This document shows positions 4,087 to 8,955 of a stretch of DNA of 10,236 nucleotides, piece after piece. Position numbers and translations under genes: made by a program. The first letter of the stretch is position 1. Each line of letters opens with the position of its first letter. Below the pieces are notes generated by a model. The model was not told the origin of the DNA. It did no database searches and saw only the letters and a program-made list of their open reading frames with translations. Origin of the DNA: Escherichia coli (lineage in GTDB: Bacteria > Pseudomonadota > Gammaproteobacteria > Enterobacterales > Enterobacteriaceae); assembly GCF_003334355.1 (NCBI RefSeq), contig NZ_QOWP01000056.1; one strand, given 5' to 3'.

Positions 4087-4131
4087 AACCTTGTCCACCG
4101 TGATTCACGTTCGTGAACATGTCCTTTCAGG

Positions 4132-4207
4132 GCCGATATAGCTCAGTTGGTAGAGCAGCGCATTCGTAATGCGAAGGTCGTAGGTTCGACTCCTATTATC
4201 GGCACCA
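4132..4207 (+). tRNA. thrW: tRNA-Thr (anticodon CGU)
   Basis: 76 nt, GCCGATATAGCTCAGTTGGTAGAGCAGCGCATTCGTAATGCGAAGGTCGTAGGTTCGACTCCTATTATCGGCACCA. It has a cloverleaf, a CGT anticodon, a GGTTCGA T-loop and an encoded CCA. Confidence 0.97.
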
Positions 4208-4224
4208 TTCAAACATCTCCCCAA

Positions 4225-4308
4225 GTCTACTAAAGTCTTTCAAAACCCCTTATAATCCGCGTATTAAAGCCCCGTTCGTCTTTTGACGTCTACTAAAGTC
4301 CCTCAAAA
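4225..4308 (+). repeat. Two 21-bp direct repeats GTCTACTAAAGTCYYTCAAAA (4225-4245 and 4288-4308), candidate integrase arm-type sites
   Basis: 19/21 identical and 63 bp apart, between the tRNA (att side) and int. A third related copy GTTTACTAAAGTA lies at 5611-5623, just after int. Confidence 0.55.
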
Positions 4309-4319
4309 TCTACGGTCAG

Positions 4320-4370
4320 ATGGGGGTACTTATGGGGGTATTTGCTGTTCGGTTTAGTGGAGGTACCCCC
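4320..4370. repeat. GGGGGTA motif cluster: a tandem pair plus one inverted copy over the int 5' region
   Basis: ATGGGGGTACTT (4320-4331) and ATGGGGGTATTT (4332-4343) are in tandem. TACCCCC (4364-4370) is the inverted copy, between the int SD and the GTG start. Confidence 0.5.
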
Positions 4371-4372
4371 AA

Positions 4373-5587
4373 GTGAAACTCAATGCCCGTCAAATAGACA
4401 CAGCCAAGCCAAAAGAGAAGGCTTACAAGCTGGCCGATGGTGGCGGTTTGTATCTCTTGGTAAAACCTAATGGAGGTAAATACTGGCGACTTAAATATCG
4501 TGTAGCTGGTAAAGAGAAGCTATTGGCACTAGGTGTGTATCCTGAGGTTACTCTAGCCGATGCTCGGGCAAAACGTGAAGATGCGAAAAGAGGTATCGCT
4601 GGTGGTATCGATCCGATGGAAGCGAAACGAGAGGAAAAGATTGCCCGGGAAACGCAGTTAAACAACACCTTCAAAGATATTGCCCTTGAGTGGCACAGCA
4701 GCAAATTAAAAAAATGGTCTGCTGGTTATGCTTCAGACATCCTCGAAGCCTTCAACAAAGATGTGTTCCCTTACATTGGCAAAAAACCAATCGCCGAAAT
4801 CAAACCACTTGAACTTCTGAATGTGCTGCGGCGCATTGAGGGGCGCGGTGCTACAGAAAAAGCCAAAAAAGTGAGGCAGCGGTGCGGGGAAGTTTTCCGC
4901 TATGCAATAGTCACTGGTCGCGCAGAGTATAACCCTGCACCAGACCTTACTAGCGCGATGCAAGGCCATGAATCTAATCATTACCCTTTCCTTACAGCCA
5001 AAGAATTACCTGATTTTTTCAAGGCATTGTCCAGTTACTCAGGAAGCGCATTGGTTGTTATGGCGGCTCGTCTACTGATTATCACAGGCTTGCGGACTGG
5101 CGAACTACGTGGCGCATTATGGGATGAAATTGATTTCAACAAGGCTCTCTGGGAGATACCCGCTTCACGTATGAAAATGCGGCGGCCTCATATTGTGCCA
5201 TTGTCTGAGCAGGCTCTTTCGCTTATTGGGAAGATTAGAGAAATAACAGGCAATTACCCTCTTATGTTTCCCGGGCGCAATGATCCAAGGAAAACAATGA
5301 GTGAGGCCAGCATAAACCAAGTGTTTAAGCGCATTGGCTACGCTGGACGTGTAACTGGTCATGGGTTCCGGCACACTATGAGTACGATTTTGCATGAGCA
5401 GGGCTATAACACCGCGTGGATAGAAACGCAGCTCGCTCACGTTGATAAGAACTCAATTCGTGGCACATACAACCATGCGCAATATCTGGATGGAAGGCGG
5501 GAGATGCTTCAATGGTATGCCGACTATATGGATTCTCTCGAGCATGGCGGAAATGTGGTGCATATGGTGTTTGAAAAACACGCATGA
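4373..5587 (+). CDS. P4-family tyrosine integrase (tRNA-associated)
   Basis: 404 aa, GTG start with GGAGG at 4359-4363. The N-terminus MKLNARQIDTAKPKEKAYKLADGGGLYLLVKPNGGKYWRLKYR is typical of P4-type integrases. Catalytic contexts are GLRTGELR, HGFRHT and RGTYNHAQY. It lies directly beside thrW. Confidence 0.93.
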   Translation: MKLNARQIDTAKPKEKAYKLADGGGLYLLVKPNGGKYWRLKYRVAGKEKLLALGVYPEVTLADARAKREDAKRGIAGGIDPMEAKREEKIARETQLNNTFKDIALEWHSSKLKKWSAGYASDILEAFNKDVFPYIGKKPIAEIKPLELLNVLRRIEGRGATEKAKKVRQRCGEVFRYAIVTGRAEYNPAPDLTSAMQGHESNHYPFLTAKELPDFFKALSSYSGSALVVMAARLLIITGLRTGELRGALWDEIDFNKALWEIPASRMKMRRPHIVPLSEQALSLIGKIREITGNYPLMFPGRNDPRKTMSEASINQVFKRIGYAGRVTGHGFRHTMSTILHEQGYNTAWIETQLAHVDKNSIRGTYNHAQYLDGRREMLQWYADYMDSLEHGGNVVHMVFEKHA

Positions 5588-5635
5588 AACAACTGGACAA
5601 GTATACAGAGGTTTACTAAAGTATAGGGGAGTAGA

Positions 5636-5663
5636 TTGATAAAAACTCACAGAGGATTACTAT
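5636..5663 (+). promoter_or_regulatory. Candidate sigma-70 promoter for the spacer transcript
   Basis: TTGATA (5636-5641), a 16-nt spacer, then TACTAT (5658-5663). Transcription would start about 5670, just before the first boxB-like hairpin. Motif match only. Confidence 0.25.
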
Positions 5664-5673
5664 TTAACAGTTA

Positions 5674-5705
5674 GCCCTGGAGAAGGGCAATCGCTCTTTT
5701 AACAA
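5674..5705 (+). promoter_or_regulatory. nut-like module 1: boxB-like hairpin plus boxA-like sequence
   Basis: GCCCT-GGAGA-AGGGC (5674-5688) differs at one loop base from the recalled lambda nutL boxB GCCCTGAAGAAGGGC. After 3 nt comes CGCTCTTTTAACAA (5692-5705), which is rrn boxA TGCTCTTTAACAA with one extra T. Confidence 0.6.
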
Positions 5706-5725
5706 CGAAGATGGAATCTTCTACG

Positions 5726-5754
5726 CAGCTGAAAAGCTGGATGCTCTTTAACAG
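5726..5754 (+). promoter_or_regulatory. nut-like module 2: GNRA hairpin plus boxA
   Basis: CAGCT-GAAA-AGCTG (5726-5739). After 2 nt comes TGCTCTTTAACAG (5742-5754), a 12/13 match to rrn boxA. Confidence 0.6.
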
Positions 5755-5840
5755 CCTTTGGTGCTTTCCTGATGCAGGAAAGAATAGGGATACATGCACC
5801 TTTACAATGCATGTAATGATTCATCCATGAGGCTGCGGAT

Positions 5841-5870
5841 CGCTGACAAAGCGCAATTGCTCTTTAACAT
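5841..5870 (+). promoter_or_regulatory. nut-like module 3: P22-type boxB core plus boxA
   Basis: CGCT-GACAA-AGCG (5841-5853) is the core of the recalled P22 nutL boxB. After 4 nt comes TGCTCTTTAACAT (5858-5870), a 12/13 match to rrn boxA. Confidence 0.6.
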
Positions 5871-5952
5871 TGATGTGGGCGGGATGGTTCGTCCCGCAGT
5901 GACCGATAGATTTCTATCGGGAAACATACAATGATTCAAATATGAATCTACG

Positions 5953-5982
5953 GCGCTGACAAAGCGCAATTGCTCTCTTGCC
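5953..5982 (+). promoter_or_regulatory. nut-like module 4: hairpin identical to P22 nutL boxB plus a degenerate boxA
   Basis: GCGCT-GACAA-AGCGC (5953-5967) equals the recalled P22 boxB-left 15-mer. After 3 nt comes TGCTCTCTTGCC (5971-5982), with a GCTCT core as in lambda boxA CGCTCTTA. Confidence 0.6.
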
Positions 5983-5992
5983 TGCCCACCAT

Positions 5993-6019
5993 GCCCTGAA
6001 AAAGGGCGTTCTTTAAAAC
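5993..6019 (+). promoter_or_regulatory. nut-like module 5: hairpin identical to lambda nutR boxB plus a degenerate boxA
   Basis: GCCCT-GAAAA-AGGGC (5993-6007) equals the recalled lambda nutR boxB 15-mer. It sits 13 nt after the boxA-like TGCTCTCTT and is followed directly by GTTCTTTAAAAC (6008-6019). Confidence 0.65.
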
Positions 6020-6028
6020 TACTGGATG

Positions 6029-6046
6029 TCACGCCTAATAGCGTGA
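6029..6046 (+). promoter_or_regulatory. Hexaloop hairpin, possibly a phage-21-type boxB
   Basis: TCACGC-CTAATA-GCGTGA, 9 nt after the boxA-like 6008-6019. From memory the phage 21 boxB is a UCACC.../...GGUGA stem with a CUAACC loop. The resemblance is tentative. Confidence 0.3.
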
Positions 6047-6116
6047 TCCTGCCGAAATGCAGGGTAGCTCTACCCTTGTGGAGCAAACAAACCAAAACAA
6101 TCTGACTATCTTTTAT

Positions 6117-6152
6117 AAAAGACCGCAATATGTTTTTCATATTGTGGTCTTT
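6117..6152 (+). terminator. Strong hairpin / candidate terminator immediately upstream of alpA
   Basis: GACCGCAATATG (6121-6132), loop TTTTT, CATATTGTGGTC (6138-6149): 12 bp with one G.U pair on the + strand RNA. It is flanked by AAAA (6117-6120) and TTT (6150-6152). A G-free C/A-rich tract (6084-6103) precedes it. Confidence 0.5.
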
Positions 6153-6238
6153 GGCGTATTCGACATTTGATGCAAATAAAACTCTCGCCATTCGTTGCAG
6201 GAGGGAGTTATTGCGTCATTAGTACAGGATATTAATAA

Positions 6239-6442
6239 ATGGCTAATTACAATTCATTAATTCGTCTCTCTGAAGTTCAAAGGCGAACTGGTTATAGCAA
6301 AGCATGGATTTATCGTCTTATTAGTCAGGGGAGGTTCCCTAAACAGGTAAAAATTGGAAGTCGGGCAATTGCTTTTGTTGAGTCTGAAATAGATGAATGG
6401 ATTGAGAAGTGTATATTAGAATCTAGAGACGAGGTGGCCTGA
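6239..6442 (+). CDS. alpA: AlpA/Vis-family phage transcriptional regulator / excision factor (MerR-like HTH)
   Basis: 67 aa. LIRLSEVQRRTGYSKAWIYRLISQGRFPKQVKIGSRAIAFVESEIDEWI is the AlpA-family pattern. AGGA lies 10 nt upstream of the ATG. It is the first gene of a co-directional operon. Confidence 0.9.
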   Translation: MANYNSLIRLSEVQRRTGYSKAWIYRLISQGRFPKQVKIGSRAIAFVESEIDEWIEKCILESRDEVA

Positions 6443-6873
6443 TGGAAAAGAAAAACCGCCCATTACAGGCGGCTAATTCAGATATTCGCGTATCTGATGT
6501 TACGCCCCTGACAAAATCCCTTCAAGCACCAAAGCGCACACCGAAAAAGCATCGTGCCAGAGTCTATATGCTGCGTACTGGTATAGAGGGATGGACAGAA
6601 AATGACATTCTTCGCTACTGCCGTCTGTCTTCTGGTCGTAACTATGCAACAGAGTTAGAACGCCAGCTTGGAATCACTCTGGAGCGTATCGACGAAAAGA
6701 ATCCTGATGGTATCGGAACACACCTTCGCTACCGTTTCTCCTGCCGTGGTGATGTTCTGAAAGTGATCACTCATGTTAACCATCTTGCGAGCATAAATGA
6801 TCACAACGGACTTTCTCAGCAGGAAATTGCCGACATTCTGAAACTCTACCCGGACGCGTTTAACGCCGCCTAA
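6442..6873 (+). CDS. Hypothetical island protein (143 aa) with a basic N-terminus
   Basis: Its start overlaps the alpA stop (TGATG). No family recognised. Confidence 0.7.
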   Translation: MEKKNRPLQAANSDIRVSDVTPLTKSLQAPKRTPKKHRARVYMLRTGIEGWTENDILRYCRLSSGRNYATELERQLGITLERIDEKNPDGIGTHLRYRFSCRGDVLKVITHVNHLASINDHNGLSQQEIADILKLYPDAFNAA

Positions 6874-7719: not shown

Positions 7720-7894
7720 GCCAACAGGAACACCACAACCACAAAAACGCTACAAAGATGCCCACGGAGCACTCGTTACTGTCGAAAGCGTGTCTCACAA
7801 CCGAGTGACGTTTTATCGCGACGGGTATCAATCGCCATGCGTACAACCGCTGGCGCGTTTCATGAAGGAGTTCGCGGAGGTTAACAAATGCTAA
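7712..7894 (+). CDS. Small DUF4222-like protein (60 aa)
   Basis: Internal ATG at 7712 of track ORF 7625..7894, preceded by GGAGGTGG (7701-7708) and overlapping the upstream stop (ATGTCTAA). YKDAHGALVTVESVSHNRVTFYRDGYQSPC resembles DUF4222 proteins (recalled). Confidence 0.7.
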   Translation: MSKPTGTPQPQKRYKDAHGALVTVESVSHNRVTFYRDGYQSPCVQPLARFMKEFAEVNKC

Positions 7895-8955
7895 CCGTCC
7901 AGAAGAAGACATTTTCACTGGCTGGTATGTCGCCAAAATCCAGCAATATGACGGCAAAGTCAGGCATTAATACAGCAGATACAAGCAAAGTTTATCATTT
8001 GCTGGTGGTCGGAACGGATGCCTTAACCATATCAGAAATCTCGGGCGATGATATTAGCATTGAGAAGGTCAGCGGCTGCGCCAGAAAATTTCTGGTCGTA
8101 GATGATGTCTTCCGCTCGTGTAGTGACTCCACAAAAACATTCGTCCACGCGCGTGACGTTAACGAAATGAGCGCGATGTACTGTGCATCTGGTGCTTCCA
8201 ATAGCGAGTTTTCGGAGTCCATAAAAAAGAGCTTGCCGTTATGCGGCAACACGGTTTATGGTTATAAGGCACCTCATAAAACGGGTGCCGGGATTGGCGT
8301 CCTGGTAAATCGAATGGCGACATATGACGCGCCGAGCGTCTTTTTTTATGTCGTAGGTCTGACTCACCCATTTTTTGGGCGTTGGTGTATAATCCAGCGC
8401 CTTTGTCAATCAATGGTGGCTCAGGCAGGGGCTTCTTCGGAAGCGCCGGTATCCATTCGAGCCGGTTACGCCAACCCTGTCTGGGCTACCACCAGCGAAA
8501 TTGGCGTTTCCGGTGGTAGCGTTACATGCTATCGAATGGAGGCTGCCACATGCTGGCTACTACCCCTACCCAAAAACCGCAATTTATCTGGATTATCGCC
8601 GCAGTTCGCCGCGATTGCCCGACAATTACCGCCAAAATTCATCATATTGCTGCCGAGTCTGAACGCGATGCTCGCCGTTCTCTGGTGCGCGATCACGTCT
8701 GCTTTTTTGCTGGTCGTATCCGCATGGAGGTGGCACATGATTAAAACCTACGATGTGCATATGGATCCCCTCGAACGCACAAGCCAGATCATCACACTGA
8801 CAGAAGTGATTAACGACATTCTGGTGAGCAACTCTCCCTCACGAGACGAAAGACTGAAGGCGTTACTCGCGATATTGGATCTCGCCGTTCGTGACGTTCA
8901 TTTCCTGCTGGAAGGTGGCGAAATGCCAGGAAAAACGGGGGCAACCAATGAATAA
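7888..8955 (+). CDS. Long open frame (355 codons). The 5' start is well supported, but the frame is probably a composite rather than one protein.
   Basis: The ATG at 7888 has GGAGG (7876-7880) at 7-nt spacing and overlaps the DUF4222 stop (ATGCTAA). The N-terminal ~120 aa look protein-like ([36 protein letters not shown], wHTH-like). The frame then crosses a terminator, a TATAAT box, a structured RNA region and the icd-like gene without meeting a stop. The true 3' end is undetermined. Confidence 0.3.
8326..8347 (+). terminator. Intrinsic-terminator-like hairpin with a T7 run
   Basis: GACGC (8326-8330), GCCGA loop, GCGTC (8336-8340), then TTTTTTT (8341-8347). Confidence 0.5.
8388..8393 (+). 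promoter_or_regulatory. Perfect -10 hexamer TATAAT upstream of the structured RNA region
   Basis: TATAAT at 8388-8393 with TG just upstream. I found no good -35, so the promoter call is weak. Confidence 0.3.
8400..8525 (+). ncRNA. Candidate c4 (P1/P7) / CI (P4)-like antisense immunity RNA; boundaries approximate
   Basis: Three hairpins. The first is GCTTC-TTCG-GAAGC (8431-8444, UUCG tetraloop). The second has a CCGG stem (8446-8449 / 8462-8465) presenting the loop ATCCATTCGA (8451-8460). The third is GCTACCACC (8485-8493) / GGTGGTAGC (8512-8520). The second loop is complementary to sites at 8309-8317 and 8531-8540. An icd-like gene follows, as in P1 immI. Confidence 0.55.
8550..8744 (+). CDS. 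Icd-like protein (host cell division inhibitor family of P1/P4-like elements)
   Basis: Internal ATG at 8550 of track ORF 8526..8744, with GGAGG (8538-8542) 7 nt upstream. [21 protein letters not shown]...[23 protein letters not shown] matches my recollection of Icd-like proteins. Confidence 0.8.
   Translation: MLATTPTQKPQFIWIIAAVRRDCPTITAKIHHIAAESERDARRSLVRDHVCFFAGRIRMEVAHD
8737..8955 (+). CDS. Small hypothetical protein (72 aa), probably an independent start within the long open frame
   Basis: The ATG at 8737 has GGAGG (8726-8730) 6 nt upstream and overlaps the icd-like 3' end by 8 nt. The sequence is helical. Confidence 0.55.
   Translation: MIKTYDVHMDPLERTSQIITLTEVINDILVSNSPSRDERLKALLAILDLAVRDVHFLLEGGEMPGKTGATNE

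What the first reader, a model, noticed from the sequence alone, without database searches (positions are those of the whole stretch)
5692..6019. Repeated rrn-type boxA antitermination motifs in an untranslated spacer
The + strand carries three strong matches: CGCTCTTTTAACAA (5692-5705), TGCTCTTTAACAG (5742-5754) and TGCTCTTTAACAT (5858-5870). The recalled Nus-factor (NusB/NusE) boxA of E. coli rrn leaders is TGCTCTTTAACAA, and lambda boxA is CGCTCTTA. Two degenerate copies follow: TGCTCTCTTGCC (5971-5982) and GTTCTTTAAAAC (6008-6019). A related CTATTTAACAG lies at 5660-5670. The exact 12-mer TGCTCTTTAACA occurs twice within about 120 nt, which is very unlikely by chance. All copies have the same orientation as int and the alpA operon, and I see no convincing ORF here. 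I do not know of multiple boxA elements described between int and alpA of a satellite island.
Basis: partly seen in the sequence, partly recalled or inferred. Interest (0 to 1): 0.8.

Follow-up and report, generated by a model that had tools for sequence, protein, structure and literature searches.

The report
Phage nut-site array in satellite leader
The untranslated stretch between the integrase and the master regulator alpA of this phage satellite carries five or six copies of the RNA signals (boxA plus boxB) that lambda-like phages use with their N protein to override terminators, so the satellite may detect its helper phage by borrowing the helper's own antiterminator.

Summary
The boxA motifs are real, at the stated coordinates, all on the + strand, and not chance. 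Together they form complete phage-type nut sites.

- 5658-5688 resembles lambda nutL.
- 5692-5739 resembles 933W/H-19B nutR.
- 5923-5970 is 48/54 identical to the annotated 933W nutL and contains the exact P22 nutL boxB.
- 5971-6007 contains the exact lambda nutR boxB.
- 6007-6046 is weakly phi21-like.

A promoter-like site conserved in position (5594-5622) precedes the array. A C-rich tract and a hairpin (6083-6152) follow it, then alpA.

Module number varies between E. coli strains (leaders of 391-655 nt). The same grammar recurs in Pantoea, Enterobacter, Yokenella and Providencia islands. Stem substitutions keep pairing, mostly through G.U, which fits a + strand RNA only.

The island belongs to the same family as EcCIMP1. 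The published EcCIMP1 alpA reporter (-449..+50) spans this whole leader and is switched on by helper phage Kapi1 even without AlpA. No inducer was named, and Kapi1 encodes a phi21-class N.

Best reading (about 0.5): helper N antiterminates the leader transcript into alpA. I found no report of nut sites in a satellite.

The parts
4373..5587 (+). Tyrosine integrase of the thrW-integrated satellite. Its stop codon immediately precedes the leader.
   Evidence: ORF; Pfam Arm-DNA-bind_3, Phage_int_M and Phage_integrase.
5594..5622 (+). Promoter-like site TGGACA-17-TAAAGT, the candidate start of the leader transcript (start inferred near 5629).
   Evidence: Consensus scan. A similar hit (TGGA[CA]A-17-TAT..T) lies just upstream of the boxA array in the Pantoea, Enterobacter and Yokenella relatives, immediately after the int stop in Pantoea. 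Not shown experimentally.
5658..5688 (+). Module M0, lambda-nutL-like nut: boxA TACTATTTAACAG (TGCTATTT in other strains), the same 8+8 nt register as lambda, and boxB GCCCTGGAGAAGGGC (5674-5688).
   Evidence: Ungapped 24-25/34 identity to lambda nutL, with 0/500 shuffles reaching the score. It is the best local hit of lambda nutL in the window, above all 30 control chunks. Lambda sequence.
5692..5739 (+). Module M1, 933W/H-19B-nutR-like nut: boxA CGCTCTTTTAACAA, spacer hairpin 5707-5721, TACG, then the GAAA-loop hairpin CAGCTGAAAAGCTG (5726-5739).
   Evidence: 36/44 identity to 933W nutR. In other strains the last hairpin is a true P22-type boxB, TCGCTGACAAAGCGG. Compensatory and G.U changes occur in both stems.
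5742..5857 (+). Module M2: boxA TGCTCTTTAACAG (5742-5754), unassigned hairpins at 5764-5782 and 5792-5814, a degenerate copy of 933W nutL, and an imperfect P22-type boxB TCGCTGACAAAGCGC (5840-5854).
   Evidence: The boxA 13-mer is identical to that of phi21-type nutR. 39/52 identity to 933W nutL. boxB scan.
5858..5970 (+). Module M3: boxA TGCTCTTTAACAT (5858-5870), hairpins at 5879-5897 and 5903-5920, then a near-copy of 933W/H-19B nutL (5923-5970) with spacer hairpin 5933-5948, TACG, and boxB GCGCTGACAAAGCGC (5953-5967).
   Evidence: 94% identity over 48 nt to features annotated nutL in AF125520 and GQ499361. 48/54 in a global alignment. Local score 81 against a control maximum of 26. The boxB is identical to that of P22 nutL.
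5971..6007 (+). Module M4, lambda-nutR-like nut: boxA-like TGCTCTCTTGCC and boxB GCCCTGAAAAAGGGC (5993-6007).
   Evidence: The boxB is identical to that of lambda nutR. 27/35 identity to lambda nutR.
6007..6046 (+). Module M5: boxA-like CGTTCTTTAAAAC (TGTTCTTTAAAAC in other strains), spacer TACTGGATG, and a 6-bp hairpin with hexaloop, TCACGC-CTAATA-GCGTGA (6029-6046). It is phi21-like in architecture and present in every E. coli variant.
   Evidence: 30/46 identity to phi21-type nutR. An unbiased local scan does not pick it as the best hit, so the assignment is tentative. phi21-type sites.
6048..6075 (+). Two further conserved hairpins (CCTGC-CGAAAT-GCAGG and GGGTA-GCTC-TACCC), role unknown.
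   Evidence: Fold. Two G-C to G.U changes in strain A20 keep the pairing on the + strand only.
6083..6152 (+). C-rich, G-poor unstructured tract (6083-6117, a candidate Rho loading site), then a 15-bp hairpin (6118-6152) followed by UUU. This is the candidate termination point that antitermination would override.
   Evidence: C/G ratio 2.1-2.2 in the 60-nt windows starting at 6070 and 6085. Inverted repeat I3. The hairpin sequence CCGCAnATG..CATnTTGTGG, with a G.U pair, is conserved in Pantoea and Enterobacter. It fails the intrinsic-terminator scan.
6239..6442 (+). alpA, the gene downstream of the leader. Its protein is identical to the AlpA of EcCIMP1, where alpA is the master regulator.
   Evidence: Pfam Phage_AlpA, 7e-20. 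Same protein accession, WP_000035054.1, in E. coli MP1.

Best explanation
The int-alpA spacer is the template for a long untranslated leader RNA. The RNA carries a tandem array of phage-type N-utilisation (nut) sites of at least two, perhaps three, N specificity classes: lambda, P22/933W/H-19B, and possibly phi21.

Without a helper phage, transcription from the conserved promoter-like site just after int would end before alpA. The likely causes are Rho acting on the untranslated, C-rich end of the leader and/or the hairpin at 6118-6152.

When a lambda-like helper infects or is induced, N is its first gene product. N would bind the matching boxB on the satellite's nascent RNA, assemble with NusA/B/E/G on the adjacent boxA, and make RNA polymerase resistant to termination. 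Polymerase would then read into alpA and the operon behind it. AlpA then amplifies its own expression and starts the satellite cycle.

Shown here: the motifs, their homology to phage nut sites, their strand specificity, conservation of the RNA structures, the gain and loss of modules, and the identity of the island family.

Taken from the literature: helper-dependent, partly AlpA-independent induction of a reporter that spans this leader, and N supplied in trans overriding terminators downstream of a nut site.

Inferred: the promoter, the termination point, N binding, and the causal link to alpA.
For: 1. Complete nut anatomy. The boxB at 5993-6007 is identical to lambda nutR and the one at 5953-5967 to P22 nutL. 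Window 5923-5970 is 94% identical to the annotated nutL of 933W/H-19B.
2. Each module aligns best to a different phage nut, with 0/500 shuffles reaching the score.
3. Seven of 8 phage nut queries have their best match in the window inside the leader (six of them strand-specific to +; Kapi1 nutR ties with a - strand site outside it), and 4 of them beat all 30 control chunks.
4. Selection acts on a + strand RNA. Among 9 distinct E. coli leaders, roughly a dozen distinct stem changes keep pairing (three by changes on both sides, the rest to G.U, which is valid only on the + strand), one restores a pair that is mismatched in the window, and 2 break it.
5. The grammar recurs with different hairpin sequences in Pantoea, Enterobacter, Yokenella and Providencia. 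A promoter-like site sits in the same position in three of them.
6. The shortest E. coli leader (391 nt) keeps one lambda-like, one 933W-like and the phi21-like module.
7. EcCIMP1 is the same family: identical AlpA, and a leader 424/427 identical to the common variant. Its alpA-lux reporter (-449..+50) covers the whole leader. It is induced by helper Kapi1 plus mitomycin C, not by mitomycin C alone, and still in a delta-alpA strain (PMC11773190). That paper names no inducer.
8. Kapi1 encodes a phi21-class N and has phi21-type nutL and nutR.
9. Plasmid-borne H-19B N antiterminates a chromosomal nutR-terminator reporter in trans (PMC3526286).
10. The window encodes no N-like protein of its own.
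Against: 1. No transcript, start site or terminator has been mapped. The E. coli leader has no canonical intrinsic terminator on the + strand, so termination rests on an inferred Rho site and a weak hairpin.
2. Several boxB-like loops deviate from the phage versions: GGAGA in M0, a GAAA tetraloop in M1, and CUAAUA against CUAACC in M5. Whether N binds them is unknown.
3. The phi21-like assignment of M5 is the one that matters for the EcCIMP1/Kapi1 data, and it is weak.
4. EcCICFT073 is induced by lambda and phi80 but has no such array. Most AlpA-related islands lack it too. So this cannot be the general induction route for Gram-negative PICIs.
5. Kapi1 could act on the leader through some other product.
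Confidence: 0.5

Rival explanations
1. Antitermination by Nus factors alone, as in rrn leaders and CRISPR arrays. The boxA elements recruit NusB/NusE (with SuhB and NusA/G), which protects the long untranslated leader from Rho at all times. The boxB hairpins would be incidental, and the helper would act on alpA by another route.
For: Two copies match the rrn boxA 12-mer exactly. Read another way, the local order is hairpin, then AAT, then boxA, which is the rrn order boxB-boxA. The leader is 391-655 nt and untranslated, so it is exposed to Rho. boxA-only antitermination of non-coding CRISPR transcripts is documented (PMC7665894, listed).
Against: rrn-type function needs no particular boxB. Here the hairpins are identical or nearly identical to the N-specific boxB of lambda and P22/933W, and whole modules including spacers align with phage nut sites. 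Constitutive read-through does not explain the helper-dependent reporter induction.
Confidence: 0.13
2. Decoy or sponge. The leader RNA titrates the helper's N protein and/or NusB/NusE. This would slow helper early gene expression as a form of interference or superinfection immunity, rather than switch on the satellite.
For: The array holds many N and Nus binding sites of several specificities. EcCIMP1 adds to superinfection immunity against Kapi1 (PMC11773190). From my own recollection of the older lambda literature, not checked here: transcribed boxA on plasmids can titrate NusB and inhibit lambda.
Against: Kapi1 titres from induced lysogens and CI-lux expression were unchanged by EcCIMP1. 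The array sits in cis directly upstream of the master regulator, ahead of a termination-prone tract, which is the layout of a control region. A single-copy chromosomal leader is a weak sponge.
Confidence: 0.12
3. Recombination scars. The modules are leftovers of exchanges between the satellite and lambda-like prophages and have no function in the island.
For: M3 is nearly identical to 933W nutL even at spacer positions, which suggests recent capture. Modules come and go between strains. One variant carries a stem-breaking change in M0.
Against: All copies share one orientation. They come without any flanking phage genes. They combine different specificity classes in tandem. They keep RNA pairing through G.U and compensatory changes. 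The same architecture, with unrelated hairpin sequences, is kept in at least four other genera.
Confidence: 0.08
4. Protein-binding repeats in the DNA. The TG(C/T)TCTTTAA motifs would be binding sites for AlpA, the integrase arm domain, IHF or another protein that regulates the alpA promoter.
For: AlpA activates its own promoter in related islands (PMC6092414). The motif is repeated in direct orientation.
Against: Spacing is irregular (about 50, 116, 113 and 37 nt, and different in each strain). The motifs always accompany hairpins whose substitutions are G.U-compatible on one strand only. The motif equals the boxA of phage nut sites in sequence and in register with boxB. The leader is about 1.4 kb from the att core, so the motifs are not arm sites.
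Confidence: 0.04

Closest known systems
Lambda nutL and nutR (N-dependent processive antitermination)
   Same: boxA followed by a 5-bp stem with a GNRA-like pentaloop. M4 carries the exact nutR boxB. M0 keeps the nutL register (8-nt boxA, 8-nt spacer, boxB) with 24-25/34 identity.
   Different: The sites are not in a phage early operon and no N gene lies downstream. They occur in tandem with sites of other specificity. M0 has G instead of A at loop position 2. The M4 boxA is degenerate and its spacer is longer.
H-19B / 933W nutL and nutR (P22-class N, two-hairpin nut)
   Same: boxA, spacer hairpin, UACG, then boxB with a GACAA loop. M3 is 48/54 identical to 933W nutL and M1 is 36/44 identical to 933W nutR. 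The two-hairpin nutR architecture and N acting in trans are described in PMC3526286.
   Different: There are several copies per leader. In some alleles the GACAA pentaloop is replaced by a GAAA tetraloop. The sites lie in a satellite, upstream of alpA.
rrn leader antitermination (boxB-boxA-boxC) and boxA in front of CRISPR arrays
   Same: The boxA 12-mer TGCTCTTTAACA is identical. A long untranslated transcript needs protection from Rho.
   Different: Those systems need no N protein and no specific boxB. Here the boxB sequences are phage-specific and the output appears to depend on the helper.
EcCIMP1 and EcCICFT073 (Gram-negative PICIs whose alpA is induced by the helper)
   Same: The island is of EcCIMP1 type: thrW site, identical AlpA, nearly identical leader. 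The helper turns on alpA by an unknown factor.
   Different: Neither paper describes nut sites. The EcCICFT073 leader lacks the array and carries GAACAAC-type repeats instead, so its induction route is probably different.
HK022 Nun exclusion of lambda
   Same: It is another case where one element exploits the boxB/N recognition code of a different phage (PMC4124055, abstract).
   Different: Nun is a protein that binds lambda's own nut RNA and stops transcription. Here a satellite would carry copies of the RNA sites and use the helper's N to promote its own transcription.

Membership tests
Lambdoid N-utilisation (nut) site | boxA element (CGCUCUU(U)A-like) on the transcribed strand | tested here: met
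   Six boxA-like motifs, all on the + strand. The 13-mer at 5742-5754 is identical to the boxA of phi21-type nutR.
Lambdoid N-utilisation (nut) site | boxB: a short stem with a GNRA-like pentaloop a few to about 25 nt 3' of boxA, with a class-specific sequence | tested here: met
   Exact lambda nutR boxB at 5993-6007 and exact P22 nutL boxB at 5953-5967. Near-exact copies at 5674-5688 and 5840-5854.
Lambdoid N-utilisation (nut) site | Colinear similarity of the whole site (boxA, spacer, boxB) to a defined phage nut | tested here: met
   M3 against the annotated 933W nutL, 48/54. M1 against 933W nutR, 36/44. M0 against lambda nutL, 24/34 ungapped. M4 against lambda nutR, 27/35.
Lambdoid N-utilisation (nut) site | Transcribed from an upstream promoter and placed before terminators that are read through | tested here: inconclusive
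   A promoter-like site conserved in position. A C-rich tract and a conserved hairpin lie before alpA, but there is no canonical + strand intrinsic terminator and no transcript data.
Lambdoid N-utilisation (nut) site | Binds cognate N and Nus factors and confers antitermination | not testable with these tools
   Needs reporter or binding assays. The only indirect support is the EcCIMP1 alpA-lux result.
Lambdoid N-utilisation (nut) site | Lies in a lambdoid phage early operon together with its own N gene | tested here: not met
   The element is a thrW-integrated satellite (int, alpA, antA/B, C4/isrK, primase). No N-like protein was found among the ORFs tested; the 143-aa ORF has no Pfam hit or N-type arginine-rich motif. 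So these sites work like nut sites but are not phage nut sites in context.
phi21-class nut site | boxA followed by a 6-7 bp hairpin with hexaloop CUAACC | tested here: inconclusive
   M5 has a 6-bp stem with the same UCAC/GUGA base pairs. Its hexaloop is CUAAUA (CUAACA in strain A20), a 4-5/6 match. Global identity is 30/46. The local scan does not rank it first.
rrn-type (Nus-only) antitermination leader | boxA TGCTCTTTAACAA in the leader of an rRNA operon, in the order boxB-boxA-boxC | tested here: not met
   The boxA sequence matches, but the window has no rRNA (Rfam finds only tRNA-Thr, isrK and C4). The hairpins are phage-specific boxB.
Gram-negative PICI of EcCIMP1 type | int followed by co-oriented alpA at thrW, then a Bro/antirepressor zone with C4/isrK RNAs and a primase | tested here: met
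   The AlpA protein is identical and the leader nearly identical to EcCIMP1 in E. coli MP1. The zone scheme is from PMC10111431.
Gram-negative PICI of EcCIMP1 type | Helper-dependent induction of alpA and mobilisation | not testable with these tools
   Shown for EcCIMP1 with Kapi1 in PMC11773190, not for this particular copy.

The most novel reading that the evidence does not exclude
A phage satellite carries a cassette-like array of nut sites copied from several classes of lambda-like phages and uses it as a broad-range helper sensor. The helper's earliest protein, N, would be the long-sought inducer. N would load onto the satellite's leader RNA and drive termination-resistant transcription into alpA. 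It could also carry transcription through the island's own termination-based immunity region (isrK/C4 at 8269-8496). Strain-to-strain gain and loss of modules would then track the local repertoire of helper phages.
Probability: 0.45. Interest if true: 0.9.

Novelty: new variant of a known kind. Interest (0 to 1): 0.8.

Why it matters
How helper phages switch on alpA in Gram-negative phage-inducible islands has been open since 2018. Fillol-Salom et al. wrote that identification of the inducer was 'now under study', and the 2025 EcCIMP1 paper names none. This finding gives a concrete mechanism that can be tested directly for the EcCIMP1 family, which is present in 279 of 5426 complete E. coli genomes.

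If right, it would be a new way for a parasite of a virus to detect its host virus. The satellite would not use a repressor/antirepressor protein pair. It would carry the virus's own cis-acting RNA signals, for several virus classes at once. It would also extend the known range of N/nut antitermination beyond phage genomes, and it would explain why the leader changes by whole modules.

Tried and rejected
- **Rfam.** At gathering and at permissive thresholds it found no known RNA family in the spacer.
- **BLAST against phage genomes.** The two halves of the spacer gave only chance hits apart from the nutL segment, because 15-nt hairpins are too short for BLAST.
- **Unassigned hairpins.** Exact-pattern scans of IMG/VR for the hairpins at 5879-5897 and 5764-5782 found only copies of this island, so no phage counterpart is known for them. 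The M5 hairpin likewise occurs only in these islands, or as unrelated terminators.
- **Generality.** The array is absent from EcCICFT073 and from most of the 80 AlpA-related loci in other genera. I therefore rejected it as a general PICI feature.
- **A protein-coding reading.** The - strand 129-aa ORF has no Pfam hit and is deleted in most variants. The 'UvrB-like' EcCIMP1_002, which by its numbering lies between int and alpA, was found non-functional by its authors.
- **An island-encoded N.** Rejected: the 143-aa ORF after alpA has no family hit and no N-type arginine-rich motif.
- **Structure-aware modelling.** The MAFFT/RNAalifold alignment of ten 933W-type modules misaligned the variable spacer hairpin. 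A three-sequence phi21 alignment misaligned the loops. I built no covariance model and counted stem changes directly instead.
- **Helper match in strain 510016.** The prophage that hosts a copy of the island there has no annotated N, so it gave no information.

Full report
**Setting**

The window runs proB, proA, tRNA-Thr thrW (4132-4207), a tyrosine integrase (4373-5587), a 651-nt spacer, and an AlpA-family gene (6239-6442). After that come a 143-aa ORF, an AntA/AntB antirepressor, isrK and C4 RNAs (8269-8346 and 8409-8496), and the start of a primase region. This matches the published four-zone layout of a Gram-negative phage-inducible chromosomal island (PMC10111431).

**The observation**

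The exact 12-mer TGCTCTTTAACA occurs twice, 116 nt apart. With up to two mismatches the window holds 9 matches against 0.89 expected, and 0 of 200 shuffles reach that.

The spacer has no credible gene. Its longest ORF (5802-6191, - strand) has no Pfam match and falls in a segment missing from most variants. RefSeq leaves the spacer unannotated in most genomes. The spacer folds far better than shuffled sequence on the + strand, with z = -7.7.

Almost every boxA is partnered with a boxB hairpin.

- GCCCTGAAAAAGGGC at 5993-6007 is the exact boxB of lambda nutR.
- GCCCTGGAGAAGGGC at 5674-5688 differs from lambda nutL at one loop base.
- GCGCTGACAAAGCGC at 5953-5967 is the exact boxB of P22 nutL.
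- 5840-5854 is a one-mismatch copy of it.

Window 5923-5970 is 94% identical over 48 nt to the feature annotated nutL in phages 933W, H-19B and many Stx phages. In an O157:H7 prophage the same sequence lies between the stk kinase gene and N.

Aligned as whole modules, each part of the spacer matches a different phage site best:

| Module | Window | Best phage match | Identity |
|---|---|---|---|
| M0 | 5658-5688 | lambda nutL | 24/34, ungapped, same register |
| M1 | 5692-5739 | 933W nutR | 36/44 |
| M2 | 5800-5857 | 933W nutL | 39/52 |
| M3 | 5915-5970 | 933W nutL | 48/54 |
| M4 | 5971-6010 | lambda nutR | 27/35 |
| M5 | 6006-6052 | phi21-type nutR | 30/46 |

No shuffle out of 500 reached any of these best-match scores.

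In an unbiased local scan, 7 of 8 phage nut queries found their best match in the window inside the leader (six strand-specific to +; the Kapi1 nutR score is tied by a - strand site outside it). Four of them scored above every one of 30 control chunks. The phi21 queries matched only through boxA, so the phi21 assignment of M5 is tentative. Exact lambda or P22 boxB sequences were absent from about 1.3 Mb of other loci, except in a relative of this leader.

**Evidence for function as + strand RNA**

The leader exists in at least nine versions in E. coli, from 391 to 655 nt. They differ by whole modules. The shortest keeps M0, an M1 with a true P22-type boxB, and M5.

Roughly a dozen distinct substitutions in stems keep the pairing and one restores it. 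Three of them are changes on both sides. The rest are changes to G.U, which would be C.A mismatches on the other strand. Only two break a pair.

The same grammar appears downstream of related integrases, or upstream of alpA copies, in Pantoea, Enterobacter, Yokenella and Providencia, and in three viral-contig relatives. It consists of a promoter-like TGGA[CA]A-17-TAT..T site, then repeated TG(C/T)TCTTT motifs alternating with GAAA(A)- or GACAA-loop hairpins, often with the 933W-type spacer hairpin and UACG. One relative carries the exact lambda boxB. The spacer hairpins differ completely in sequence between loci yet remain complementary.

The array is not universal. Most AlpA-related loci lack it, and so does EcCICFT073.

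**Downstream of the array**

After the modules come a C-rich, G-poor tract (C/G about 2.1-2.2 in the 60-nt windows starting at 6070 and 6085) and a 15-bp hairpin at 6118-6152 followed by UUU. The core of that hairpin, including a G.U pair, is conserved in Pantoea and Enterobacter. It does not meet the criteria of an intrinsic terminator. The stop signal is therefore inferred, and Rho is the more likely agent.

**Link to experiments**

EcCIMP1 of E. coli MP1 sits at the same thrW site. It encodes the identical AlpA protein, and its 427-nt leader is 424/427 identical to the common variant.

Its authors fused -449..+50 of alpA to lux, which covers the entire leader. The reporter was induced only when the helper prophage Kapi1 was present and induced. 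Induction persisted, at a lower level, in a delta-alpA strain (PMC11773190). They name no inducer and do not mention antitermination.

Kapi1 carries a phi21-class N gene (arginine-rich motif GTAKSRYKARRAELIAERR) and phi21-type nutL and nutR. EcCIMP1 did not change Kapi1 titres, which weakens a pure decoy role.

For EcCICFT073 the helper-encoded inducer was likewise left open (PMC6092414). That N supplied in trans overrides Rho-dependent and intrinsic terminators downstream of a nut site is standard (PMC3526286).

**Interpretation**

The most economical reading is that the satellite carries copies of its helpers' nut sites, and that helper N is the signal that lets leader transcription reach alpA. 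I put this at about 0.5.

The rivals are:

- Nus-only protection of the leader (0.13)
- an N/Nus decoy (0.12)
- functionless recombination scars (0.08)
- DNA-level binding sites (0.04)

Full-text searches combining boxB, nut, antitermination, satellite, PICI and alpA found no report of nut sites in a satellite. The library is incomplete, so this is absence of evidence only.

**Verdict**

The feature is a new variant of a known kind. It makes an open question in satellite biology directly testable.

Noticed in passing
window 8269-8346 and 8409-8496: isrK and C4 antisense RNA families (67 and 79.5 bits) lie inside a mechanical 355-aa ORF (7888-8955) that RefSeq calls 'ash family protein' in some genomes. 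This is the P4/P1-type immunity region that works by premature termination. A termination-resistant polymerase coming from the leader would be expected to read through it.
   Followed up: partly
L001 4513-4813 (E. coli 510016) against window 4100-4400: The same island, with a 100% identical leader, is inserted in strain 510016 at a secondary site. The site is inside a truncated DNA-methyltransferase gene of a prophage, downstream of its Q gene. The only shared sequence is a core beginning ATTATCGGCACCA, the 3' end of thrW, and no tRNA is present there. The strain has a second copy of the leader elsewhere.
   Followed up: partly
window 4225-4245 / 4288-4308 and 4320-4343: Direct repeats lie between thrW and int: GTCTACTAAAGTC(T/C)(T/C)(T/C)TCAAAA twice, 63 nt apart, and a tandem ATGGGGGTA(C/T)TT. 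They are candidate integrase arm-type or promoter-control sites.
   Followed up: no
window 6118-6152 and 6454-6474, - strand: On the - strand the hairpin at 6118-6152 is followed by TTTTATAAAAG, so it looks more like a terminator there than on the + strand. A second - strand terminator-like site (AGCCGCCTGTAATGGGCGGTT + TTTCTTTT) sits at the junction of alpA and the 143-aa ORF. Antisense transcripts across alpA are possible.
   Followed up: no
L089 5180-5245 (EcCICFT073); L017 100-160; L022 500-560: The EcCICFT073 int-alpA spacer has no nut array. It carries a run of GGACAAC/GAAACAAC/GGAACAA repeats instead. Similar TGGAACAAC repeats lie just upstream of the promoter-like site in the Enterobacter and Yokenella leaders. 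They may be a shared protein-binding element.
   Followed up: no
window 5764-5782, 5792-5814, 5879-5897, 5903-5920, 6048-6075: Five or six further stable hairpins in the leader have no counterpart in the phage sequences searched. They could be boxB sites for N classes not yet characterised, or parts of spacers.
   Followed up: partly
leader of EcCIMP1 (L212 2858-3284) and window 5802-6191: Databases place spurious genes in this leader. One is the 'UvrB-like' EcCIMP1_002, which by its numbering lies between int and alpA and which its authors showed to be non-functional. Another is a 129-aa hypothetical protein that RefSeq annotates in only a few genomes.
   Followed up: yes
window 811, 1349, 2019, 2747, 4507, 5322: Six two-mismatch matches to TGCTCTTTAACA lie outside the leader, inside proB, proA and int. 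That is more than the roughly 0.9 expected for the whole window. They have no hairpin partners, and I treated them as noise.
   Followed up: no
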